DNA of 23,540 nucleotides, taken from Opitutaceae bacterium. Its GTDB lineage: Bacteria > Verrucomicrobiota > Verrucomicrobiia > Opitutales > Opitutaceae. Made by a program: the position numbers and the translations under genes. The DNA is taken from NCBI GenBank assembly GCA_035513275.1, contig DATKCJ010000187.1, positions 1 through 23,540 on the forward strand. Direction: 5' to 3'. Shown piece after piece: positions 1,610-17,524 of the stretch. The stretch's first letter is position 1, and every line of letters starts with the position of its first letter. The notes beneath the pieces were generated by a model. That model saw only the letters and a program-made list of their open reading frames with translations. It was not told where the DNA came from and searched no databases.

Positions 1610-2139
1610 CAGATCATTTCCCGAACCTGATCTCTCGTCACAGAGTTCACGGAGGCCACACAGAGTCCATGGAGGCAAAAAACTCCTCTGTGCACTCGGT
1701 CCGGCCCTCTGTGCTCTCCGTGACTCAGAATCCGTTTTCTTTGAATGCCGCCTATGACGCGCTAGTCCCATTCGTGCTCTGCTGGCCAGCAGAGTGACCC
1801 AACTTCCTCATCTGATTCCGACCTCCATGTCTCTGCCTGTCCTCCGTAGCCTCGGCGAAGGAGGATGCCTCCGTGGTTCAGTCCATCCAAATCCGTGCCC
1901 ATCTGTGAAATCAGTGGCCAGAACTCCGTGTTTCTTCTGTGTCTCGTGCTGCTTCGTGCAAGTTCCCGCGACATAGCCGGGTCCGTTCCCCTCTGTTCCT
2001 GTCTCCTGCGTTTCCCTTTTTTCGTGTATTCAGTGTATTCCGTGGGCAGCCCTCCTTCCCCTCTTCGCTCCGAAACCTTTCGTGTGTTTCGTGTATTTCG
2101 TGGTTCCCATCCCCTCTGTGGTTTAAGATCTGACTTCCG
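1610..2139. repeat. 530-bp pyrimidine-rich non-coding spacer packed with CTCTGTG / CACAGAG octamer-like units and TTCGTGTATT direct repeats.
   Basis: Tandem CACAGAGTTCACGGAGGC / CACAGAGTCCATGGAGGC units are followed by inverted CCTCTGTGCACTC / CCCTCTGTGCTCTC units. TTCGTGTATT...TTCGTGTGTTTCGTGTATTTCGTGG lies near the 3' end. CCTCTGTGGTTTAAG sits 10 nt before the ATG at 2140. Every ORF in the region is short and Cys/Ser/Pro-rich. Confidence 0.5.
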
Positions 2140-7877: not shown

Positions 7878-8516
7878 TCAATCGCCCGACGGCTTCTCCG
7901 CGACGAGTATCATGCTCATCCAAAGCCACGGGAATCGTCCGGCGCCGATGAACTTCGTGACTCGGAAGCCCTCCTCCTCGAGGAGCCTTGTGAGTGTCGC
8001 ACGCGACCAAAGCTTGATGTGCCCGCCGTCCCAGAACGGCGAGAGGTGATCGTCCCACTTGTCTGTGAGTGAAAGCATGAGGTTCTTCAGGTAGCCGTGA
8101 TAAGGTGTGCTCACGATCAGGAGTCCACCCGGCCGAAGAACCTGTTTAGCGAACTGCGGCAAGTGTCGTGGCATGGCGAGGTGCTCCACGACTTCCGTGG
8201 AGACGACGATATCGAAGCCGCGCTCGCCCAGTAGCGTCGGATCATCGTCGACGCCGAGCTGCTTGAACGTCGCGCCCGGGACGGACTCCGAGGCGATCCG
8301 AATACCCTCGCCGCTCGGGTCGCAGCCCACCGCGCTGAATCCTGCGTGGGCGAGCTCGCGGCAGAACGCTCCGTTGCCGCAGCCGAGATCGAGCACCCGC
8401 TTCGCACCGAACTGCGCGCAAGCGGCGAGGATTGGCTTCCACAAGTAGTCGCTGGTGTGCGCGGCATCCGCCGAGCCGTAGTGATACTCGCCAGGTGTTG
8501 CGTTTGAGGTGTTCAA
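7878..8516 (-). CDS. Class I SAM-dependent methyltransferase, 212 aa, translationally coupled to bshA. It is a candidate NmbA-like N-methyltransferase.
   Basis: Motif I VLDLGCGNGAF, the acidic post-I loop and motif II/III DIVVSTEVVEHL are present. The start lies 8 nt after the bshA stop. Confidence 0.8.
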   Translation of the reverse strand: MNTSNATPGEYHYGSADAAHTSDYLWKPILAACAQFGAKRVLDLGCGNGAFCRELAHAGFSAVGCDPSGEGIRIASESVPGATFKQLGVDDDPTLLGERGFDIVVSTEVVEHLAMPRHLPQFAKQVLRPGGLLIVSTPYHGYLKNLMLSLTDKWDDHLSPFWDGGHIKLWSRATLTRLLEEEGFRVTKFIGAGRFPWLWMSMILVAEKPSGD

Positions 8517-8524
8517 GATGGTCC

Positions 8525-9657
8525 TCAGCCCGCACAGACTCGCCGGTAGATCGCCTCGTAGCGCGGCACGATCGCGGCCGCGGAGAACCGATCATGCGCG
8601 CGGACACGTGCGGCATCGCCGAGCGTCGCACGTCGCGCAGGATCGCGGAGAAGAGACTCGATTGCGGCGGCCATCGCGCCTGTGTCGGGAAACGGCACGA
8701 GCAATCCGTGCTCGCCGCTCGTCACGACCTCGGGAATCCCGCCGACGGCGAACGCCACACTGGGACATCCGACGCTCATCAGCTCGAGGATGCTCAGGCA
8801 AAAGCTCTCAACTTCCGATGTGAACAGGCCCGCGTCGGCCGCCGCGAGATAGCCTTCGATGTCACTCACCTTCTCGCGCACCACGATCCGGTCGGCCACG
8901 CCGCGCTTCGCGGCCTCGGCGAGCAGCGGCGCGGGATCGCCGCCGGCAAGCACGACGAGTTTGAAGGCAATCCGAGGCTCGAGCCGCGCCACCACGTCGA
9001 CAAGCAGGTCGAGCCGTTTGAGCGGGCGCAGGTTCGAGAGGTGCAGAATCATCGCCTCGCCGTCGGTGAGACCAAGCTCGGCGCGAATATCCGAGCGCGC
9101 GTGCTCCGCTTTGCGCGGCTCGAAGAAATTGTGGACGACGTCGATCGGACTCTTCACGCCGAGAAGCCGCTGCGTCTCGCGACGCAAGAACTCGGAGACG
9201 GTTGTAATCGCATCGGACTGCTCGAGCGCGTGCGCGATTGCCGGACCGTAGCCCGGATCGCGCCCGAGCAGCGTGGTATCGGTGCCGTGGAGCGTGGTGA
9301 TGATCTTGAGCCTTCGCTCGGCATGAAGCATTTCACGCGCAAGGATCGCTGCGGTCGCGTGCGGCACCGCGTAGTGCACGTGCAGCACGTCGAGTGCGTG
9401 ATCGCGGCTCACCTCGGCCATCTTCACAGAGAGCGGAAGCGTGTAGTCGGGATACTTGAAAAGGTCGTAGCTGTTCACCACCACCGGGTGGAAGAACACG
9501 TTCGCGCGCCGCGGCATCCGAAACGGCTGCTCGTAGCTGATGAAGTGAATCTCGTGCCCGCGCGCCGCAAGCTCGTCGCCCAGCTCTGACGCGAGGATCC
9601 CGCTGCCGCCGACGGACGGGTAGCAGGTGATGCCGATTTTTAGCGGGCGATCAGGCA
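8525..9657 (-). CDS. bshA: BshA, N-acetyl-α-D-glucosaminyl L-malate synthase (GT4 glycosyltransferase of bacillithiol biosynthesis), about 377 aa.
   Basis: The N-terminus MPDRPLKIGITCYPSVGGSGILASELGDELAARGHEIHFIS matches the BshA hallmark KIGITCYPSVGGSG. The protein aligns with Bacillus BshA along its whole length (TTLHGTD, GGIPEV). The ATG at 9657 is preferred over the GTG at 9679. Confidence 0.85.
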
Positions 9658-9672
9658 TGAGGAGCGAGGTCT

Positions 9673-9924
9673 TAGCCACAGATTACAAAGATGGGCACAG
9701 AGGAGAGGAGTCGGAGATTTACCACAAAGGCACAGATACACAAAGGGGCACTCGGGTTGTGATTTCCCAGTCGGATTCATTCAGTCGAAAGTAGCTGCCG
9801 ACGTGAAGAGGCAGATGAAACGGTGGCTGCCAAAAGACCTGCCTCGTTACCTCGGCAGCTACGGGACTTTTGCGTAATCGATTGCATCGTTCCGGCTCTG
9901 TGTCTCTGTGCCTCTGTGGTGAAC
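9673..9924. repeat. Inverted pair of YCTCTGTG-octamer repeat elements in the bshB-bshA intergenic gap.
   Basis: The forward copy CTCTGTGTCTCTGTGCCTCTGTGGTGAAC is at 9896-9924. Reverse-orientation copies are at 9718-9745 (reverse complement CCTTTGTGTATCTGTGCCTTTGTGGTAA) and 9673-9702. A near-identical copy is at 17496-17524. Confidence 0.5.
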
Positions 9925-9943
9925 ATGATCGGGTCGGTTCCGA

Positions 9944-10672
9944 TCAGAATTGTCGTGCGGAGCGGGAGGCCGCCGCGAGCGACGAGAAGACCAGCGCATC
10001 ATTCGGCCACAGAGGCTGCGCATGCCCTACCCCGGCGCGCAGGCCGCAGACGCGCGCGCGGGCGAGCTGAAGATCGACATACGCGCGCGTCTTGAGTTGC
10101 GAAGCATGTGCGAGCATCGCCTTCGTCCACCGGTCGAGCGCCCTGCGGGCGGAGATGTCGATGAACACGGGTTGCGTGGAGGGCTCGGCGTCCGGCGAGA
10201 CGGCGTAGAAGAAGAGCTGGCCGACGGCATGCGGACGCCGCGCTTTGAGCGGAGCGAGTCCGCCGTAGCGCGCAAGACGCGAAGCATCGCGCACGATCTG
10301 CGCCAGCCGCCAGTGATCGGGGTGCTGGTTTCCCTCGAGCGTGGGCGCGAGGACGGTCGAGGGGCGCAGCCGCCGGATGATCCCCGCGAGCTTCATCGAG
10401 TGCGCCGCCTTCACCTCGAGCTGAGCGTCGCCATCGAGCTCGATGAACTCGATTGTCGCGCCAAGGAGCTTCGCCGCACGCTCCGCCTCGGCGATGCGAA
10501 TCGCCGGCGTGCCGTTGCTGCCAGCTTCGCCGCGCGAGCAAACCACCATGTGAACCCGCCGCCCGCCGAGCACCTCGGCAGCGACGACGCCGCCGCATCC
10601 GAACTCGATGTCGTCCGGATGCGCACCGAAGACCAAGAGTGGCGGTAACAATGAAGGGGCAGACTTTTTCAT
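9944..10672 (-). CDS. bshB: LmbE/PIG-L family deacetylase, probably BshB (N-acetylglucosaminyl-malate deacetylase), 242 aa.
   Basis: The zinc-binding motif VFGAHPDDIEFGCGG is present together with the downstream HPDH motif. Assignment to BshB rather than a generic LmbE rests on placement between bshA and the BshC-like gene. Confidence 0.65.
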   Translation of the reverse strand: MKKSAPSLLPPLLVFGAHPDDIEFGCGGVVAAEVLGGRRVHMVVCSRGEAGSNGTPAIRIAEAERAAKLLGATIEFIELDGDAQLEVKAAHSMKLAGIIRRLRPSTVLAPTLEGNQHPDHWRLAQIVRDASRLARYGGLAPLKARRPHAVGQLFFYAVSPDAEPSTQPVFIDISARRALDRWTKAMLAHASQLKTRAYVDLQLARARVCGLRAGVGHAQPLWPNDALVFSSLAAASRSARQF

Positions 10673-10692
10673 GGCAGGAGTCGCCTCGGCGA

Positions 10693-10713
10693 GATGTCAC
10701 CTATTAGGTGACA
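10693..10713. promoter_or_regulatory. Operator-like palindrome ATGTCACCTA-T-TAGGTGACAT. This is the proximal copy, 21-41 nt upstream of the bshB ATG.
   Basis: Perfect 9-bp inverted arms TGTCACCTA/TAGGTGACA surround one central T. The site is AT-rich in a GC-rich context and an identical copy lies 46 bp away. Confidence 0.55.
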
Positions 10714-10738
10714 TTTGCCCGGGGCGTTCTTCAGAGGG

Positions 10739-10758
10739 AATGTCACCTATTAGGTGAC
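10739..10758. promoter_or_regulatory. Second (distal) copy of the operator palindrome ATGTCACCTATTAGGTGACA.
   Basis: It matches the proximal copy exactly over 20 bp, centre to centre 46 bp, about 4.4 helical turns. It lies between the BshC-like stop (10826) and the bshB start (10672). Confidence 0.55.
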
Positions 10759-10825
10759 AAGTCGGCTTGGGATCGGCGGTGAGGGGCTTGAACGTATTAC
10801 GTTACAAACGGGATTGGGACGGCGG

Positions 10826-11605
10826 TCAGGAAGCTGGGACATCGGTGTAGGCTTCATCGGAGCGATCGATTGGGTCGCGGGCGACGTAGGTTATCTCAGG
10901 CGCGTCGGACTTGTTCAAGTATGCCTGCTCCCCTGCCCCGGCGATGTAGTGCGTGCAGAGCACGACCGACTGCATCCAGCGCAGCCGGGAGTCGCGCGTT
11001 GGGCTGATGTGCTCCCGGGTGAACGGGATGTGCGGAAGCGTGAGCCACGAGTCGCCGCCTTCGTGGAGCTTCAGGGCACCTTCGATGCAGCGAGCGCGCA
11101 CAATCTCACCCGAGTGCGGCACATCGACGAAGTAGTCACTCACCTCGCAGGCGTCGGCGCGGACCGCCGGGTCGCCCGAGCGCACAACTCGGATACCATC
11201 GAGCAGCCCCATCGCGCGATACATCGCCAGGCAAAAGTCCGCATGGTTCGTGGCTTGGACCGACTTGAATGCCTCGACCCAAAGCGGGGCCACGAAGTTC
11301 GGAAGCTGCCGCGCGGTGTTCGCCTGCCAGCCATCGGGGATGTGCTTCAGGAAGAGCGGCGAGTACTTGCGCTGAATCTTGTTCGCGAAGGTGAAGTTCA
11401 GCGCTTGCGCGCCGTCTGTCCGGCGTTCGCGGAGGATAGTCTGCGTCTCGCGGCAGTCATGGTCGCTGTCGTGGCAGAAGAAGACGATCTCGCCGCCAAT
11501 CTCGGACTGCAGCCTGCGCGCGGTGATGATCTTCGCGTAGAGGAACCGCCGCGGGAAGAATCCGCAGGGTTGTTGGCCGAAGCAGATGACGGGGGAGGAG
11601 GGCAA
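10826..11605 (-). CDS. Short homologue of the BshC N-terminal Rossmann-like domain, a putative cysteine-adding enzyme, 259 aa with a TTG start.
   Basis: VICFGQQPCGFFPRRFLYAKIITARRL...FFCHDSDHD aligns with BshC [24 protein letters not shown]...FWVAGEDHD. RVVRSGDPAVRA aligns with BshC LVLLNSGDPGIK. The protein is half the length of canonical BshC (about 540 aa), and both flanks are occupied so the gene cannot extend. An in-frame TAG at 11642-11644 was verified. Confidence 0.6.
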   Translation of the reverse strand: MPSSPVICFGQQPCGFFPRRFLYAKIITARRLQSEIGGEIVFFCHDSDHDCRETQTILRERRTDGAQALNFTFANKIQRKYSPLFLKHIPDGWQANTARQLPNFVAPLWVEAFKSVQATNHADFCLAMYRAMGLLDGIRVVRSGDPAVRADACEVSDYFVDVPHSGEIVRARCIEGALKLHEGGDSWLTLPHIPFTREHISPTRDSRLRWMQSVVLCTHYIAGAGEQAYLNKSDAPEITYVARDPIDRSDEAYTDVPAS

Positions 11606-11686
11606 AGTGAGAGTGAAAGTGAGAGTGAGAAGAAATGGGGCCTATAGGCCTTATGCGACCCATAGGACCTATGTGGCCTATGCGAC
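11606..11686. repeat. Intergenic repeat cluster made of a (CTCACT)x4 hexamer array abutting the TTG start, the 12-bp perfect palindrome GGCCTATAGGCC, and an approximately 27-bp tandem CCTAT(A/GT)GGCC(T)TATGCGAC repeat overlapping the symporter stop.
   Basis: 11606-11631 is GTGAGAGTGAAAGTGAGAGTGAGA. 11639-11650 is GGCCTATAGGCC. TATGCGAC occurs at 11652-11659 and 11679-11686. Confidence 0.45.
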
Positions 11687-13396
11687 TGAAGGAGCCCCGG
11701 AAGATGAGTGTCCTCGCGGCAGCACAGCCTGCAAAATGAGACTGAACACCACGCAGGCGATGCAGCCGATTGGGTTGAGCCAGAGGTAGGCGATGCCGAA
11801 CTTCGGGCCGAGGAAATAGAGCGCGATCACCACGATCTGCGCGGAGACCGCGGCCCAGAATACAGCGGTCCCACCGACTCGCTTGAAGAAGAACGCGACA
11901 ACGAAAACGCCAAGCAGCGCCGGATAGAAGATCGAGGCGACGATGTTCAGCGCCTCGATGAGGTTCTCCGCGAAGCTCACGAAGAGAGCGAAGCTGATCG
12001 CGAAGCATCCCCACAGCGCGGTCAGCCACTTCGCGACGCGGACGTTGCGCGCCTCGTCGTGCGCCGCGAGCGGACGGAAGCGCCGCCAGAGATCGATCGT
12101 GCTCGTGGTGCCGAGCGCGTTCAACTCGCCGGCCTTCGACGAGAGTGCCGAGGCGAACATGACGGCGATGAGCAGCCCGACGAGTCCTTGCGGGAGCTGG
12201 TTGAGGATGAAGTTGATGAAGACGTAGTCGGAGTCGCGCGTCTTCTTCGACTCCGGGGCCGCCGCGTGGAGCGCGGCGCGCGCCTCGTCACGGATCGCGG
12301 TGGATGCCCGCTGCGCGGCGGAAAGTGCCTCTCGCGCTGCGTTCTCGATCGACGGATCGCCCAACTCGCGCGCTGCGACGAACTCGCGGATCCGCTCCTG
12401 CTTGTCCGCGTGCGCCGTGGCATGGCGTTGCTCGAACTCCTGGAACTGCGCGGCGTTCGCACCGTTGACCTGCTGCTGCCAAGCAGCCTGGTTGAAGACA
12501 ACGGGCGTGCCTGCGTGAAACTGGTAGAACACGAAGAGCAGCGCACCGAGGATCACGATGAAAAACTGCATCGGGATCTTGAGGAGTGCGTTGAACATCA
12601 GCCCGAGTCGCCCTTCGCGGAGCGCGGCGCCGCCGATGTAGCGCTGCACCTGCGACTGGTCGGTGCCGAAATACGAGAGCGAGAGGAAGAAGCCGCCGAG
12701 GATGCCGCTCCAGATCGTGTAGCGCACGCGGAGGTCGGGGTTGTAGTCGACCGCCTCGAGCTTTCCCATCGCGCCGGCGATCGCGAACGCATCATCCGGC
12801 ACGCTGCGAACGAGGATGATGAACGCCGTGACCATGCCGCCGAAGATGACGGCCATCTGCCATTTCTGCGTGAGGTTCACTGCAGCGCTGCCGCCGGTGA
12901 CGGTGTAGACGATCGCAAGGACGCCGGTGAAGATGATCGTGAGATCGAGCCGCCAGCCGAACACCGTCGAGAGGATGATCGCCGGCGCGTAGATCGTGAT
13001 ACCGCTCTGCAGGCCGCGTTGGAGGAGAAAGATGCCGGCGCCGAGGAGCCGTGTTTTCCCATCGAAACGCCGGCCGAGGTATTCGTAGGCGGTGTAGACA
13101 CCGAGCTTGCGGTAGATCGGCAGGAAGACCGCGCACACGAGGATGAGCGCGAGCGGCAGGCCGAAATAATTCTGGATGAATGCGATTCCGTTTTCGTAAG
13201 CCTGGCCTGGAAGCGAGAGGTAAGTGATTGTGCTCGCCTGTGTGGCCATGACCGAGATGCCGATCGTGGCCCAGCCCGTAGTCTGGTTGCCCTTGAGGTA
13301 GGTGTTGAGATTTCGCGTGTGACGCGTGCGCCAAGTGCCGTAGGCCGCGATGCCGACCATGGTCCCGAGCAGGACGAACCAGTCGAGGGCGTTCAT
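11678..13396 (-). CDS. Sodium:solute symporter (SSS/SLC5) family transporter, 572 aa, with an approximately 90-aa hydrophilic Ala/Arg/Glu/Gln-rich insertion between helices.
   Basis: The N-terminal helix pattern includes the conserved SSS segments GWATIGISVMATQASTITYLSLPGQAY and YTAYEYLGRRF. The insertion covers residues about 302-392 (coordinates about 12221-12493). The start overlaps the upstream small ORF by ATGA. Confidence 0.85.
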   Translation of the reverse strand: MNALDWFVLLGTMVGIAAYGTWRTRHTRNLNTYLKGNQTTGWATIGISVMATQASTITYLSLPGQAYENGIAFIQNYFGLPLALILVCAVFLPIYRKLGVYTAYEYLGRRFDGKTRLLGAGIFLLQRGLQSGITIYAPAIILSTVFGWRLDLTIIFTGVLAIVYTVTGGSAAVNLTQKWQMAVIFGGMVTAFIILVRSVPDDAFAIAGAMGKLEAVDYNPDLRVRYTIWSGILGGFFLSLSYFGTDQSQVQRYIGGAALREGRLGLMFNALLKIPMQFFIVILGALLFVFYQFHAGTPVVFNQAAWQQQVNGANAAQFQEFEQRHATAHADKQERIREFVAARELGDPSIENAAREALSAAQRASTAIRDEARAALHAAAPESKKTRDSDYVFINFILNQLPQGLVGLLIAVMFASALSSKAGELNALGTTSTIDLWRRFRPLAAHDEARNVRVAKWLTALWGCFAISFALFVSFAENLIEALNIVASIFYPALLGVFVVAFFFKRVGGTAVFWAAVSAQIVVIALYFLGPKFGIAYLWLNPIGCIACVVFSLILQAVLPRGHSSSGAPSVA

Positions 13397-13629: not shown

Positions 13630-16179
13630 TCATTCATGACCCAGCGAGATGAGGTTCGCGAAAAGCCGATACGCGCCTGGCACGCCGGCGGGGAGCTGCC
13701 TGAAGAACGCGAGACCTGTGTAGACGTAGTAGCCCTTCCCGTGGCGCGCGATCAGGACGCTGCTGTCCGGCTGTGTCTGCCCCGGATCGCTCATCGCCAG
13801 CAGAGCAGTGTAGCTCGCCTCGTCCCAAGTGCTCGGGAAATACGCACCGCGCTCCTGCACCCAGCCCTCGAAGTCGGCCTGGTTGATCTTGTTCGGCGTG
13901 TTGAGCGCGGGATGATCGGGTGCGAGGAAGTTCACGGGAGCCGTCTCGTCGGTCACTCGAAAGCGAGCGGCCTGGCCCTCGATCGAGAGCGGAAACGGCC
14001 CGAGTTGCGTCGCCTTCAGTCCGTTGGGCCGGTTGTATTGGGCAACGACCGTGCCGCCCGCCTCGACCCACGCGAGAAGGCCGGGGAAATTCGCCCCGAG
14101 GTCGTCGCGCTCGTTGAACGCGCGCACACCGATCACGACCGCGTCGAGCCCGGCGAGTCGCTCCAGCGTGAGATCGGCGCCGGTGAGCACGCGCACCGTG
14201 CATCCGAGTTGCTCGAGCGCCTCCAACGTGCTGTCGCCTGCACCCGGCAGGTAGCCAACATTTTTCGCCAGCGTGCGCGCGTCGCTGCTCACGAGTCGCG
14301 CAGCCGCCGGCGGTTGCAGCAACTGGACGGGAAGGTGATCGTAGCGCAGTTCAATCCTCTGCGTTGAGTATTCGCGGCTGTCGATCGTTGCGGTCGCTTT
14401 CAATTCGCCACTCGCAGCAGCCGCCGGCGCAGTCACATCGAACGAGAGACTCGCCTGCTCGCCCACGGCACGGGTCGCGAAATCGCGCGCTGCCGGGGTC
14501 ACCTTCCAGCCGACCGGCACATCGAGACGTAGCGTTCCGCGAAGATCCGCGCGCGCTGCAGATACCTCCACCCACACGGATTTCGTTCCGCCCGGCGGAA
14601 CAAGCAGCACCTCGGAGCCGATTCTCAAGGACGCCGGCGGAATGAACTTCAATTCGCTCCGCGCGTCGCCCGCCACAAAGACCGGCGTCTCCACCATCGC
14701 GAAGCGGCGACCGTCGATCTCAAACTCGAGCTCGACCTGAAGCACGGGGGGATTCTCCGGCAGCCCGATCATCGCGGCGTCGCTCACTTTCGCGATTCCG
14801 GCCGAGCCTTTCTCGCGCAACCAATATGGCTGCGTCAGAGGCGTGTCCGCTGGAATCACGAATGTGTCGCGCTCCATCCGCTCCGAAATGGGAATCGCGT
14901 CGGCGGCGTGGGTGCCGACTTGTTGTTCGTGGACGACTCGACCGTTCACGAGGTAGCGCACAGACGTTTGGCGGCCCGGAACCGGCGCCAGATTCCATTG
15001 ATGCCGCGTGACCGTGACTGATTCGCCCGGGACGATCTCGCCGCGTTCGACCGTCGCTTCGAGTCCGAGCCCGAGGCACGCGCGAAGGATGCTGTCGAGG
15101 GCGGCGCGACGGTCTGCGACGACGGAATCGTCAGGCAGGTCCGCCAGTTTCGCGCGAAGTTCAAGAAGCGCGGGCACGCTCGCGGCGGGCTCGGTGGCGT
15201 CGAAGCTTGCCGCGAGTTTCGCAACAAGTTCCTCGACCCCTGCGCCACCGGTGTAGCGCGTCCAACCCGTGTCGACACCGTCCATCAAGTCTGACTCTGC
15301 CGGCTCGCCCGCCATGAGCAGGAAGTTCTGTTCGTTGGCGCCGGTGCGCGCGCGGTCGACGAAGCCGCCGAGGCCTTGCGTCTTGTGCATCGCTCGGCTT
15401 TTCGCGGCGATCAGGCCAAACGACTCGCCCGTGACGGGGTCGGTGCCCGCGATGTCTTGCATGAAGACGGGTCCGTCGAGCGGCAGCGGAGCGTTGGGGT
15501 TGAAACGAAATGCGTTCCAGAGGACGCGCTTCGCCTGCCATGGCTTGAGGCCCTGCGCAATCTGCTCGGGATACGCCGTCGGGTCGGCTGATATCTTGAA
15601 GGCCTCGACCGCGAGGATGCCCGACGCAGTATGTTGGCCGTGACCGCCGCTGCCGGGAGGAATTGGGAAACGCGTGACGATCACGTCGGGACGGAACATG
15701 CGGATCACGCGCACCACGTCGGCGAGCACCTGCTCGCGATCCCAGAATTGCAGCGTTTCCTCGGGCGACTTCGAATAGCCGAAGTCGATCGCGCGCGTGA
15801 AGAACTGGCTCCCGCCGTCGAGCCGGCGCGCAGCGAGCAACTCTTGTGTGCGCAACACGCCGAGCTTCTCATCGAAGTCGCGGCCTAGTTCGTTCTGCCC
15901 GCCGTCCCCGCGCGTGAGCGAGAGATAACCGGCGCGAAACCCGCGGCCACGAGAGAGCCACGTGATCAGCTCGGTATTCTCATCGTCGGGGTGCGCGGCG
16001 ATGTGCAGCACCGTGCCGGTCGTCGCGAGCGCGCGCAGGTCGTGCTGGATCTGGATCCGCGCGGCGTCGCTGAGCACTTCGCGGACGACTGGCGGGCGTT
16101 TCTCCGCGATGTCGACCGGAGGCGGCGAGTCGGTCGCACTCGCGAGCGATGCAGTGAACGCGAACAAGCATGCGCTCAT
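13630..16179 (-). CDS. Secreted approximately 849-aa fusion protein: an N-terminal PIG-L/LmbE-family deacetylase domain plus a C-terminal ThuA/class-I-glutamine-amidotransferase-like domain.
   Basis: The signal peptide MSACLFAFTASLASA begins at the ATG at 16179 (verified). The deacetylase motif is LHIAAHPDDENTELITWL...TRGDGGQN. The C-terminal segment DAVVIGVRAFNERDDLGANFPGLLAWVEAGGTVVAQYNR follows a ThuA/DJ-1-like fold pattern. Confidence 0.75.
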   Translation of the reverse strand: MSACLFAFTASLASATDSPPPVDIAEKRPPVVREVLSDAARIQIQHDLRALATTGTVLHIAAHPDDENTELITWLSRGRGFRAGYLSLTRGDGGQNELGRDFDEKLGVLRTQELLAARRLDGGSQFFTRAIDFGYSKSPEETLQFWDREQVLADVVRVIRMFRPDVIVTRFPIPPGSGGHGQHTASGILAVEAFKISADPTAYPEQIAQGLKPWQAKRVLWNAFRFNPNAPLPLDGPVFMQDIAGTDPVTGESFGLIAAKSRAMHKTQGLGGFVDRARTGANEQNFLLMAGEPAESDLMDGVDTGWTRYTGGAGVEELVAKLAASFDATEPAASVPALLELRAKLADLPDDSVVADRRAALDSILRACLGLGLEATVERGEIVPGESVTVTRHQWNLAPVPGRQTSVRYLVNGRVVHEQQVGTHAADAIPISERMERDTFVIPADTPLTQPYWLREKGSAGIAKVSDAAMIGLPENPPVLQVELEFEIDGRRFAMVETPVFVAGDARSELKFIPPASLRIGSEVLLVPPGGTKSVWVEVSAARADLRGTLRLDVPVGWKVTPAARDFATRAVGEQASLSFDVTAPAAAASGELKATATIDSREYSTQRIELRYDHLPVQLLQPPAAARLVSSDARTLAKNVGYLPGAGDSTLEALEQLGCTVRVLTGADLTLERLAGLDAVVIGVRAFNERDDLGANFPGLLAWVEAGGTVVAQYNRPNGLKATQLGPFPLSIEGQAARFRVTDETAPVNFLAPDHPALNTPNKINQADFEGWVQERGAYFPSTWDEASYTALLAMSDPGQTQPDSSVLIARHGKGYYVYTGLAFFRQLPAGVPGAYRLFANLISLGHE

Positions 16180-16353
16180 TGCACGGGCGCGATTCGACCA
16201 CCGCGCTTTATCCAGATCAGCCGCGACTGCGCATTTCAAAGTTTCGATACGCAACAGTCGGGTCATTTGGGACATGGATAGCCGGAAGGCAGTCAAGCGG
16301 GTGGTTGCGCAACGTTGATTGTGGGTAAATGAATCGGAAACACGTGGATGCGA

Positions 16354-17443: not shown

Positions 17444-17524
17444 CGACAGAGGCACGAAGACGCGGAGAAAATTCATGCACTCGTTCTCCTCAGATCTTTG
17501 TGTCTCCGTGTCTCTGTGGTGAAT
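17444..17524. repeat. Inverted pair of YCTCTGTG-octamer repeat elements in the intergenic region between the DUF2911-like gene and the GNAT gene.
   Basis: The forward copy CTTTGTGTCTCCGTGTCTCTGTGGTGAAT at 17496-17524 matches 25 of 29 positions of the 9896-9924 copy. The reverse copy at 17444-17470 has reverse complement TTTCTCCGCGTCTTCGTGCCTCTGTCG. Confidence 0.5.

What the first reader, a model, noticed from the sequence alone, without database searches (positions are those of the whole stretch)
10686..10765. Two identical copies of a 20-bp AT-centred palindrome (ATGTCACCTA-T-TAGGTGACA) directly upstream of bshB
The exact 20-mer ATGTCACCTATTAGGTGACA occurs at 10693-10712 and again at 10739-10758. 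Each copy has perfect 9-bp inverted arms, TGTCACCTA and TAGGTGACA. The centres are 46 bp apart, which puts both on the same face of the helix. The proximal copy lies 21-41 nt upstream of the bshB ATG.

This is the signature of a dimeric transcription-factor operator. Two dimers could bind cooperatively to repress or activate an internal promoter that drives bshB-bshA-methyltransferase. No regulator gene is present in the window. In Bacillus, bacillithiol genes belong to the Spx regulon. A dedicated operator of this kind has not been described for bsh genes, as far as I know.
Basis: seen in the sequence. Interest (0 to 1): 0.65.

Follow-up and report, generated by a model that had tools for sequence, protein, structure and literature searches.

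The report
Dispersed palindrome repeat, not bsh operator
The two identical palindromes in front of bshB are real, but they are copies of a short insertion-type repeat scattered through Opitutaceae genomes, even inside genes; the repeat seems to be the recognition site of a small DNA-binding protein whose own gene is always flanked by it, so it is not a dedicated switch for the bacillithiol genes.

Summary
A third, degenerate relative lies 48 bp further on (10788-10806).

The core TGTCACCTAWTAGGTGACA is a dispersed repeat of Opitutaceae. I found at least 125 exact copies in 107 loci from at least 30 assemblies, roughly 20 exact and 70 degenerate copies per genome. About 28% of copies sit in-frame inside housekeeping genes, where they read C-H-L-[LI]-G-D.

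None of 80 orthologous bshB loci from metagenomes carries the palindrome. In about 60 of 76 of those loci, the upstream gene overlaps bshB by about 26 nt. The window's 153-bp gap was therefore created by insertions, and bshB acquired a new start codon.

The only recurrent neighbour of the palindrome is a 117-aa Xre/Cro-like HTH gene. All 17 examined copies of that gene have a palindrome close upstream (0-83 nt before the start codon), and most also have one downstream. Divergent HTH paralogues carry symmetric variant palindromes (TGTCACGTA..., TGTAACGCA...).

Best reading: a REP/REPtron-like mobile palindrome family whose partner is an HTH protein rather than a tyrosine transposase. Any effect on bshB, through an RNA hairpin or a protein roadblock, is secondary and unproven.

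The parts
10694..10714 (.). Palindrome copy 1, proximal to bshB: ATGTCACCTATTAGGTGACAT. Perfect 21-bp palindrome of the canonical class TGTCACCTA-W-TAGGTGACA.
10740..10759 (.). Palindrome copy 2 of the canonical class. The 20-mer is identical to copy 1 and has 9-bp arms.
10788..10806 (.). Third, degenerate palindrome of the sister class TGTAACGTA-W-TACGTTACA (2 mismatches). It lies 48 bp from copy 2 and forms its own small hairpin in the predicted fold.
10673..10825 (-). 153-bp gap between orf259 and bshB. It is derived from insertions and is absent from most orthologous loci. As RNA, the two canonical copies are predicted to pair with each other in a long stem (MFE -53.4 kcal/mol, z -5.75).
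10855..10857 (-). Relic of the ancestral bshB start codon inside the 3' end of orf259 (the 'SDEAY' region). Its frame reads MKPT...PVCNVIRSS...LVT** and stops inside palindrome copy 2.
9944..10672 (-). bshB-like PIG-L deacetylase with a new start codon 21 nt downstream of copy 1.
10826..11605 (-). orf259, a conserved protein of unknown function. In most relatives it overlaps bshB by about 26 nt.

Best explanation
The two 20-mers, plus a third degenerate relative, are copies of a short palindromic insertion element. The family is specific to Opitutaceae. Its core is TGT[C/A]AC[C/G/T][T/C]A-W-T[A/G][G/C/A]GT[G/T]ACA, with six symmetric classes seen.

The element behaves like REP/BIME or Rickettsia-type palindromic elements:
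- It is scattered through the genome at roughly one copy per 57 kb.
- It forms short arrays with a 46-48 bp period.
- It lands between genes of operons and, in its single open frame, inside housekeeping genes.
- It is gained independently in different lineages and decays afterwards.

Its core is most likely recognised by a small (about 117 aa) dimeric Xre/Cro-type HTH protein. That protein's gene is itself bracketed by copies, one or two upstream and one downstream. The proximal upstream copy ends 28-30 nt before the ATG in about half of the genes. HTH paralogues carry matching variant palindromes. This resembles a REPtron in which an HTH protein takes the place of the RAYT transposase.

In this window the elements were inserted into the very 5' end of bshB. 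Ancestrally that end overlapped orf259 and was translationally coupled to it. The insertions created the 153-bp gap and forced the use of a new start codon.

Shown: dispersal, in-frame insertions, absence from orthologous bsh loci, association with the HTH gene, and covariation between HTH paralogue and palindrome class.

Inferred: that the HTH protein binds the core; that the copies are still co-transcribed with orf259 and bshB; that at this locus they act at most as an intercistronic RNA hairpin or a protein roadblock that modulates read-through into bshB-bshA, rather than as an evolved bsh operator.
For: - **Dispersal.** More than 107 stretches hold the exact core, all from Verrucomicrobiota, and the named ones are Opitutales/Opitutaceae. 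Single assemblies contribute at least 7 contigs each. No hits in 2.9 M viral contigs. Density away from index copies is 10 copies in 567 kb.
- **In-frame copies in coding sequence.** 33-35 of 125 copies lie in ORFs with high GC3 on both sides. Hosts include an XPD/DinG-like helicase, an NAD-epimerase, a cysteine desulfurase, FolK-PabB, an amidase and RsmE. In the cysteine desulfurase the two copies form a roughly 30-aa insertion relative to PDB 4isy.
- **Insertion at bsh.** 0 of 80 orthologous bshB loci carry the palindrome. About 60 of 76 have orf259 overlapping bshB. The relic start codon reads into a stop inside copy 2. In an NJ tree the window is sister to empty loci, while the filled loci L067 and L093 lie elsewhere, which implies at least 2 gains. 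Other lineages carry other hairpin repeats at the same junction.
- **Decay.** Helicase orthologues of 75-80% identity range from an exact CHLIGD to remnants such as KPKGESSSDT. Other lineages carry CHVIRD or SN[LP]IGY at the same linker.
- **Duplicated array.** A 157-nt array of three palindromes is duplicated at 95% identity in L075.
- **HTH partner.** It is the most frequent recurrent neighbour of the palindrome in clustering. Copies lie upstream of all 17 HTH genes examined and downstream of most. Six of these genes were fetched by protein and so are unbiased for the palindrome.
- **Covariation.** The CG class flanks P0057, P0075, P0111 and P0067. The TGTAACGCA class flanks the second paralogue in L002, 4 kb from a paralogue flanked by the CC class.
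- **HTH fold.** The AF2 model has pLDDT 75. All top Foldseek hits are Xre/Cro HTH proteins, though weak (E about 0.1-1). Pfam gives YdaS at E 0.003.
Against: - No transposase or recombinase was found next to the copies, so the means of spread is unknown. A 117-aa HTH protein has no obvious catalytic site, and no fusions to catalytic domains turned up among the 150 best-scoring family representatives listed.
- No target-site duplications were seen.
- The copy number is modest compared with classical REPs, and the GTAG/CGTC tags of REPs are absent.
- Exact cores persist at orthologous sites in genomes whose proteins are only 60-75% identical. Examples are the bsh gap in the window, L067 and L093, and the helicase site in 6 loci. 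This hints at constraint on some copies, which fits a functional protein-binding site better than pure junk.
- The consistent 28-30 nt distance from site to ATG at HTH genes, and 19-21 nt at bshB (window, L067), looks operator-like.
- Gene calls in the 107 loci are my own rough GC3-based calls.
- Binding of the HTH protein was not and cannot be tested here.
Confidence: 0.65

Rival explanations
1. One reading: the two palindromes are operators of a dimeric transcription factor that cooperatively controls an internal promoter for bshB-bshA-methyltransferase. In other words, a dedicated or at least physiologically evolved bsh regulator site.
For: - Perfect dyad symmetry in two copies.
- A plausible cognate HTH protein exists.
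- The same gap holds the palindrome in two other genomes, L067 and L093.
- The site-to-ATG distance of 19-21 nt at bshB resembles the geometry at the HTH genes.
Against: - 0 of 77 orthologous loci with enough upstream sequence have it, and ancestrally there is no gap.
- The motif is dispersed, including in-frame inside genes.
- No promoter-like site was found in the gap.
- In L067 the whole gap is 52 nt, which leaves no room for a promoter.
- The filled loci are not monophyletic.
Confidence: 0.12
2. The palindromes are functional sites of a genome-wide DNA-binding protein. This could be a global regulator in the manner of DdrO/RDRM or HrcA/CIRCE, or a chromosome-organising factor in the manner of MatP/matS or ParB/parS. 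On this view the sites are selected, not selfish, and bshB is one member of the set.
For: - HTH-palindrome covariation and flanking of the HTH gene itself.
- About 20 exact sites per genome, a typical size for such a site set.
- Exact cores at orthologous positions in diverged genomes.
- Sites of parS or matS type can lie within genes (established knowledge).
Against: - Sites inside genes are insertions of extra codons, often in pairs, not overprinted sequence.
- They decay freely among close relatives.
- They show presence/absence polymorphism and independent gains.
- Flanks are complementary to each other far beyond what an HTH dimer reads.
- A whole three-site array is duplicated.
Confidence: 0.15
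3. A purely RNA- or DNA-structural repeat with no protein partner. The hairpins act like classical REPs in the polycistronic mRNA, stabilising the upstream orf259 message, offering an RNase III target, or attenuating read-through. The adjacency to the HTH gene would be just another insertion hot spot.
For: - Extended complementary flanks: at least 4 extra bp in 44 of 123 copies and at least 9 in 17.
- Symmetric variants far outnumber asymmetric ones.
- The predicted fold of the gap is strong (-53.4 kcal/mol, z -5.75).
- Co-directional gaps are the commonest setting.
Against: - Structure alone does not explain an invariant 18-nt sequence across genera.
- Class-specific pairing of palindromes with HTH paralogues, including two classes 4 kb apart in one locus, is hard to explain as a hot spot.
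- There is no T-run, so the copies are not intrinsic terminators.
Confidence: 0.08

Closest known systems
REP / BIME elements and REPtrons (REPs with their RAYT/TnpA-REP gene)
   Same: - Short (about 20-40 bp) palindromes dispersed in the genome.
- Mostly between co-directional genes, clustered in small mosaic arrays, and occasionally inside genes.
- A partner gene bracketed by copies, with a class-specific match between gene and repeat.
- Opitutus is already known to be REP-rich (PMC3733652; also PMC8266576, PMC3479197).
   Different: - No GTAG or CGTC tag.
- Perfect odd-length dyad with a 1-nt centre instead of an imperfect stem with a loop.
- Modest copy number.
- The bracketed gene is a 117-aa Xre/Cro-type HTH protein without an HUH/Tyr motif, not a Y1 transposase.
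Rickettsia palindromic elements (RPE)
   Same: They insert in-frame into housekeeping protein-coding genes and add a peptide loop. Copies are found in both genes and spacers, and no transposase is encoded in the element (established knowledge; mentioned in PMC3733652).
   Different: RPEs are 100-150 bp, come from an unrelated lineage, and have no known cognate DNA-binding protein. The element here has a 19-bp core.
Xre/Cro-family autoregulators with palindromic operators (R-M controller C-proteins and C-boxes, HigA, HipB; global example DdrO/RDRM)
   Same: A small HTH protein with dyad-symmetric sites, often two, just upstream of its own gene. Protein and site specificity change together.
   Different: Operators of those systems are not spread as insertions into coding regions. 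They are not bracketed by long variable complementary flanks, and they do not also sit downstream of the gene as a rule.
Known control of bacillithiol genes (Spx regulon in Bacillus)
   Same: It concerns the same pathway genes (bshA, bshB).
   Different: Nothing here resembles it. Spx has no palindromic operator, and the present palindrome is absent from almost all bshB orthologues.

Membership tests
Dedicated transcription-factor operator of bsh genes | Conserved upstream of orthologous bshB genes | tested here: not met
   0 of 77 orthologous loci with at least 120 nt of upstream sequence carry it at up to 4 mismatches. It is present only in the window, L067 and L093.
Dedicated transcription-factor operator of bsh genes | Lies at a promoter | tested here: inconclusive
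   No sigma-70-like site was found in 9500-12000. The gap in L067 is only 52 nt. Verrucomicrobial promoters are poorly defined and no transcript data are available.
Dedicated transcription-factor operator of bsh genes | Restricted to a small, functionally coherent set of promoters | tested here: not met
   There are at least 125 exact copies next to or inside unrelated genes, and about 28% lie in ORFs.
REP / BIME | Short palindromic unit repeated many times in one genome, mainly extragenic | tested here: met
   The core is 19 bp, with an estimated 20 exact and 70 degenerate copies per genome. About 72% are intergenic, against an expected 12% or so of the genome. The copy number is at the low end for REPs.
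REP / BIME | GTAG or CGTC tetranucleotide tag at one end | tested here: not met
   The consensus ...AAAG|TGTCACCTAWTAGGTGACA|CTTT... has neither tag. Definition taken from PMC3733652.
REP / BIME | Clusters or mosaic arrays of units | tested here: met
   The window array sits at 10694/10740/10788. L075 has arrays of three classes with a 48-nt period. Many doublets are spaced 46-75 nt apart.
REPtron | Partner gene encodes a RAYT (Y1 HUH transposase) | tested here: not met
   The bracketed gene is a 117-aa HTH protein. It has no Pfam hit above threshold, no HUH motif in the alignment, and an Xre-like fold.
REPtron | Partner gene bracketed by cognate repeats, with class-specific pairing | tested here: met
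   17 of 17 HTH genes are flanked, and three classes co-vary with the paralogue.
MITE | Terminal inverted repeats plus target-site duplication, derived from an IS element | tested here: not met
   The flanks of copies are inverted, not direct, repeats. No related IS or transposase is seen in 107 loci.
Rickettsia-type palindromic element | In-frame insertion in protein-coding genes | tested here: met
   The CHL[LI]GD peptide appears in six enzyme families, and it forms a roughly 30-aa insertion relative to PDB 4isy.
Rickettsia-type palindromic element | Length of 100-150 bp and sequence relatedness to RPE families | tested here: not met
   The core is 19 bp, extending to about 43 bp at most.
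Xre/Cro HTH protein with operator (for the protein-site pair) | Lambda-repressor-like HTH fold | tested here: inconclusive
   All top Foldseek hits are Xre/Cro HTH proteins, but with E of about 0.1 or worse and TM 0.3-0.6. The model has pLDDT 75. Pfam YdaS scores 17.7 bits against a cut-off of 30.
Xre/Cro HTH protein with operator (for the protein-site pair) | Sequence-specific binding to the dyad | not testable with these tools
   Only adjacency and covariation support it.
Intrinsic terminator | GC-rich stem followed by a T-run | tested here: not met
   No terminator-like site was found in 10673-10825.
Known RNA families (Rfam) | Match to a curated covariance model | tested here: not met
   Nothing relevant in 9600-10900 at E up to 1.

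The most novel reading that the evidence does not exclude
A previously undescribed kind of repeat-plus-gene module: a family of small Xre-type HTH proteins, each paralogue co-evolving with its own class of perfect 19-bp palindromes. The palindromes bracket the HTH gene and have spread through the chromosome as mini-insertions, including in-frame into essential enzymes. Either the HTH protein drives or guides the spread, which would be a non-transposase analogue of RAYT, or the cell has built a genome-wide binding-site network out of mobile operators. In the second case bshB-bshA is one of the operons newly wired to it.
Probability: 0.35. Interest if true: 0.75.

Novelty: new variant of a known kind. 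Interest (0 to 1): 0.55.

Why it matters
For the bacillithiol genes, it removes a tempting false lead. There is no conserved bsh operator here. The gap in front of bshB is a recent scar of repeat insertion into an operon whose genes ancestrally overlapped.

More generally, the element offers a clean natural system for two questions. One is how very short palindromes spread in bacterial genomes without an obvious transposase. The other is how DNA-binding proteins and their sites change specificity together. Here there are six symmetric site classes, and at least three of them are paired with distinct HTH paralogues.

The in-frame copies also matter for annotation and protein modelling in Verrucomicrobia. 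They add CHL[LI]GD, CHVIRD or SNLIGY loops to housekeeping enzymes.

Tried and rejected
- **Rfam** scan of the gap: nothing.
- **Promoter and terminator scan:** no promoter and no terminator in the gap.
- **Literature search** by the sequence strings: only unrelated primers. I found no paper describing this repeat or an HTH-flanked REP.
- **Viral contigs:** 0 hits, so a phage operator origin is unlikely.
- **DNA uptake-sequence idea:** rejected, because isolated 9-mer half-sites are rare (270 half-site hits, of which 250 lie inside full palindromes).
- **CRISPR-like array:** rejected. Units of different classes sit next to each other, arrays have only 2-4 units, and there are no cas genes.
- **Simple recognition code:** I looked for Asp versus His after the RQRV motif matching the CC versus CG class. 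This fails for L008 and L021.
- **Leaderless promoter idea:** I tested whether GTGACA of the right arm could act as a -35 box. No conserved -10 box lies between the site and the ATG.
- **Source contig of the window:** not found by exact protein look-up.
- **DNA for two helicase genes with CHVIRD** (P0194, P0223): not retrievable. The DNA-level link between CHV[LI]RD and TGTCACGTA... was confirmed in L102 instead.
- **orf259:** no match to solved structures.
- **The methyltransferase:** no specific NmbA evidence.
- **First MAFFT run** on 120 helicases timed out and was replaced by anchor-based extraction.

Full report
**Observation**

The exact 20-mer ATGTCACCTATTAGGTGACA occurs at 10694-10713 and 10740-10759. 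That is one base higher than reported, and 0.00 matches are expected from shuffles. Copy 1 extends to a perfect 21-bp palindrome. The spacing of 46 bp is correct, but it equals about 4.4 helical turns, so the 'same face' argument fails.

All local genes are on the minus strand, in this order:
- a sodium:solute symporter (11678-13396);
- a conserved 259-aa ORF without any family match (10826-11605);
- the 153-bp gap that holds the palindromes;
- a PIG-L deacetylase whose best match is BshB1, at 127 bits and below the cut-off (9944-10672);
- a 264-bp gap;
- a true BshA (398 bits, above the cut-off; 8525-9679);
- a class-I methyltransferase (7878-8516).

A third, degenerate palindrome of a sister class lies at 10788-10806 (TTGAACGTATTACGTTACA). 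It has 2 mismatches to TGTAACGTAWTACGTTACA, with 0.00 expected by chance. The result is a three-unit array with a 46/48-bp period.

**The motif is a dispersed repeat**

I scanned one genome per species for TGTCACCTANTAGGTGACA. All are from Verrucomicrobiota, and the named ones are Opitutales/Opitutaceae (Opitutus, Rariglobus, Lacunisphaera). They come from at least 30 assemblies, with at least 7 contigs from each of several assemblies.

The 780 kb fetched hold 125 exact cores, plus 16, 14 and 5 copies with 1, 2 and 3 mismatches. Isolated half-sites are rare. More than 1 kb away from the index copies there are 10 copies in 567 kb. That suggests about 20 exact and 70 degenerate copies per 5-Mb genome. 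There are no hits in 2.9 million viral contigs.

**Anatomy of the copies**

The flanks show a weak consensus...CCaaaG|core|Ctttgg... More strikingly, in many copies the two flanks are complementary to each other while differing between copies. Examples are ccaaaccaaag|core|ctttggtttgg, cccgaccgtt|core|aacggtcggg and ccaatcaaca|core|tgttgattgg. At least 4 extra complementary bp occur in 44 of 123 copies, and at least 9 in 17.

Non-canonical cores are nearly always symmetric. In 1.2 Mb of fetched DNA, every perfect palindrome of the form TGT-N6-N-N6-ACA belongs to one of six classes:
- TGTCACCTA, 131 copies (this is the class used to find the loci);
- TGTCACGTA, 17 copies;
- TGTCACTTA, 6 copies;
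- TGTAACGCA, 3 copies;
- TGTAACGTA, 3 copies;
- TGTAACCTA, 3 copies.

Copies often form doublets or arrays with spacings of 46-75 nt. In L075, a 157-nt array of three different classes with a 48-nt period is duplicated 3 kb away at 95% identity.

**Where the copies sit**

I used rough GC3-based gene calls. By these, 35 of 125 copies are inside ORFs, 47 are in co-directional gaps, 12 in convergent gaps and 9 in divergent gaps. Only one reading frame of the core is open, and it reads C-H-L-[LI]-G-D. The intragenic copies all use this frame, with high GC3 on both sides.

The host genes are housekeeping enzymes, and the copies lie at orthologous positions in several genomes. They include an XPD/DinG-like helicase (6 loci), an NAD-epimerase, a cysteine desulfurase, FolK-PabB, an amidase and RsmE. 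A second, degenerate copy often lies nearby. In the cysteine desulfurase, the two copies lie in a roughly 30-aa insertion relative to PDB 4isy.

**Unbiased tests of conservation**

(a) I fetched 80 orthologous bshB loci from metagenomes by protein similarity (41-75% identity). None has the palindrome at up to 4 mismatches within 400 nt upstream, and none has a copy at up to 2 mismatches anywhere in the locus.

In about 60 of 76 of these loci, orf259 overlaps bshB by about 26 nt. The bshB ATG lies inside the codons for the conserved SDEAY of orf259. The window (153-nt gap), L067 (52-nt gap, one copy) and L093 (about 290-nt gap, one exact and one 1-mismatch copy) are exceptions.

In the window the old ATG survives at 10855-10857. 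Its frame passes the third palindrome in that palindrome's open frame (..PVCNVIRSS..) and then runs into stop codons inside canonical copy 2. The present bshB uses a new ATG 21 nt after copy 1.

An NJ tree of BshB plus orf259 gives this picture:
- the window sits next to empty loci (L127, L138);
- L067 sits next to L122, which has a gap without the palindrome;
- L093 sits in a distant clade with L186, which carries a different hairpin element.

This implies at least two independent gains. Other lineages carry unrelated hairpin repeats at the same junction. The bshB-bshA junction is similarly variable.

(b) I examined 120 orthologues of the helicase. The linker that hosts the copy is hypervariable:
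- about nine sequences have an exact CHL[IL]GD;
- close relatives (75-80% identity) show progressive decay, for example KPKCHLIGDTPSENLVLEE to KPKGESSSDTLVLEE to KPKEDHASETLVLEE;
- other lineages carry CHVIRD (CG class) or SN[LP]IGY (TGTAAC class), or quite different in-frame repeats.

L102 confirms at the DNA level that TGTCACGTA... in frame reads CHV[LI]RD.

Together these results show insertion, presence/absence polymorphism and decay. That is the behaviour of mobile or selfish DNA, not of a conserved operator.

**The partner protein**

I clustered all ORFs next to palindromes. The most frequent recurrent neighbour is a gene of about 117 aa. In the loci found through the pattern scan, a palindrome lies 0-83 nt upstream of its start codon (about 30 nt in five of them). 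A second upstream copy often lies 66-116 nt further out, and a further copy usually lies 18-58 nt after the stop codon.

The protein has no Pfam or NCBIfam family. The nearest Pfam match is YdaS at E 0.003, below threshold. Database searches found:
- 293 homologues, all about 115-125 aa; where a source names the organism, it is Opitutae/Opitutaceae;
- 144 clusters in the 50%-identity library at E up to 1e-10, with no fusion to catalytic domains among the best 150 listed.

The AF2 model (pLDDT 75) has a long N-terminal helix followed by a four-helix HTH. All top Foldseek matches are Xre/Cro-type HTH proteins such as HigA, R-M controller proteins, HipB and AcrIIA15-NTD, but they are weak, with E of about 0.1-1.

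I also fetched six homologues by protein, so their retrieval is unbiased with respect to the palindrome. All six are bracketed in the same way:
- P0006 and P0042 carry the canonical class;
- P0057, P0075, P0111 and P0067 carry the symmetric variant TGTCACGTAWTACGTGACA.

In L002, two paralogues lie 4 kb apart. One is bracketed by the canonical class. The other is bracketed by a third class, TGTAACGCAWTGCGTTACA, with two copies upstream and one downstream.

The proximal site ends 28-30 nt before the ATG in 9 of 16 genes. The HTH gene sits in at least six different genomic neighbourhoods.

This covariation is what is expected of a cognate protein-site pair. It parallels the class-specific pairing of RAYT genes with their flanking REPs (PMC3733652, PMC8266576), except that this protein is an HTH protein and not an HUH transposase.

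**What the copies may do at bshB**

No sigma-70-like promoter or intrinsic terminator is detected in the gap, and no Rfam family matches. As RNA, the gap is predicted to fold strongly (-53.4 kcal/mol, z -5.75). The two canonical copies pair with each other, and the third palindrome forms its own hairpin.

The most economical reading is as follows. The copies were tolerated insertions into a co-transcribed orf259-bshB-bshA operon. They uncoupled bshB translation from orf259. They may now modulate read-through, either as an RNA hairpin or, if the HTH protein binds, as a roadblock. A real regulatory role is possible but not shown.

Some observations argue that certain copies are constrained. The palindrome persists in the same gap in three diverged genomes. 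The site-to-ATG distance at bshB (19-21 nt in the window and L067) is fairly close to that at HTH genes. I therefore keep the functional-site models as rivals.

**Comparison with known systems**

The closest are REP/BIME elements and REPtrons. Shared features are short dispersed palindromes, arrays, occasional intragenic copies, and a bracketed partner gene with class matching. The differences are the absence of a GTAG or CGTC tag, a perfect odd-length dyad, a modest copy number and an HTH partner.

Rickettsia palindromic elements share the in-frame insertion habit, but they are 100-150 bp long. Xre/Cro autoregulators share the protein-site logic, but their operators are not spread as insertions.

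I found no description of this repeat or of an HTH-bracketed REP-like module in the searchable literature. That is an absence of evidence within that library only.

**Verdict**

The finding is best filed as a new variant of a known kind: a REP/REPtron-like palindromic repeat family with an HTH partner. How the palindromes spread, why the flanks and variant cores stay symmetric, and whether the HTH protein regulates, organises or mobilises remain open.

Noticed in passing
window 10826-11605 (-): orf259 is a conserved 259-aa protein with no Pfam, NCBIfam or PDB match. In about 60 of 76 orthologous loci it overlaps bshB by about 26 nt and precedes bshB-bshA. It is a strong candidate for an uncharacterised component of bacillithiol metabolism. 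Its N-terminal 'GQQP' stretch reminded me of BshC, but that is from memory only and was not tested.
   Followed up: partly
window 9680-9943 and 17496-17523: The bshB-bshA gap holds other repeats. One is a 28-nt unit, TTCACCACAGAGGCACAGAGACACAGAG (9896-9923, inverted at 9718-9745, and again at 17496-17523). Another is a 24-nt hairpin (9791-9814 / 9839-9862). Most orthologous loci have no gap at this junction.
   Followed up: partly
Helicase orthologues P0121-P0240, linker between 'LRTLxAMT' and 'WHVRPKxEHC': This linker is an insertion hot spot for several other in-frame repeat peptides (IGHSSLDIGHS, SQLSTLNPQL, SPLASRPSP, NPKSKIQNPKS). Opitutaceae therefore seem to carry several families of coding-tolerated mini-repeats.
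   Followed up: no
L075 1472-1666 and 4591-4747: Arrays of three to four palindromes of different classes have a 47-48-nt period. A 157-nt stretch is duplicated at 95% identity. Another repeat flanks the arrays (GCCCTTCGACTYGGCTCAGAGCAGGCAGAGCGCC, 3 copies).
   Followed up: partly
window 10694-10759 (core sequence): The core contains UCACCU, which is identical to part of the 16S rRNA 3' tail, and its complement AGGUGA, which is Shine-Dalgarno-like. In RNA the hairpin would pair an SD-like sequence with an anti-SD-like one. This may be coincidence, and the distance to the bshB ATG (21 nt) is too long for use as an SD.
   Followed up: no
window 13630-16296 (-): An 888-aa protein carries a second PIG-L (LmbE-like) deacetylase domain plus an NPCBM-associated domain. 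It lies upstream of the symporter in the same orientation as the bsh genes.
   Followed up: no
window 7878-8516 (-): The methyltransferase after bshA is a generic class-I SAM enzyme. Neither NCBIfam nor the PDB sequence search shows specific similarity to the bacillithiol N-methyltransferase NmbA, so the 'bsh methyltransferase' label is unproven.
   Followed up: partly
window 1986-2102: A T-rich imperfect tandem or direct repeat (units such as TTTCGTGTATTCAGTG) lies just upstream of the gene that starts at 2140.
   Followed up: no
L002 2558-2911 and 6795-7157: Two HTH paralogues lie 4 kb apart in one genome, each bracketed by its own palindrome class (TGTCACCTA versus TGTAACGCA). This is a natural pair for specificity-swap experiments.
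   Followed up: yes
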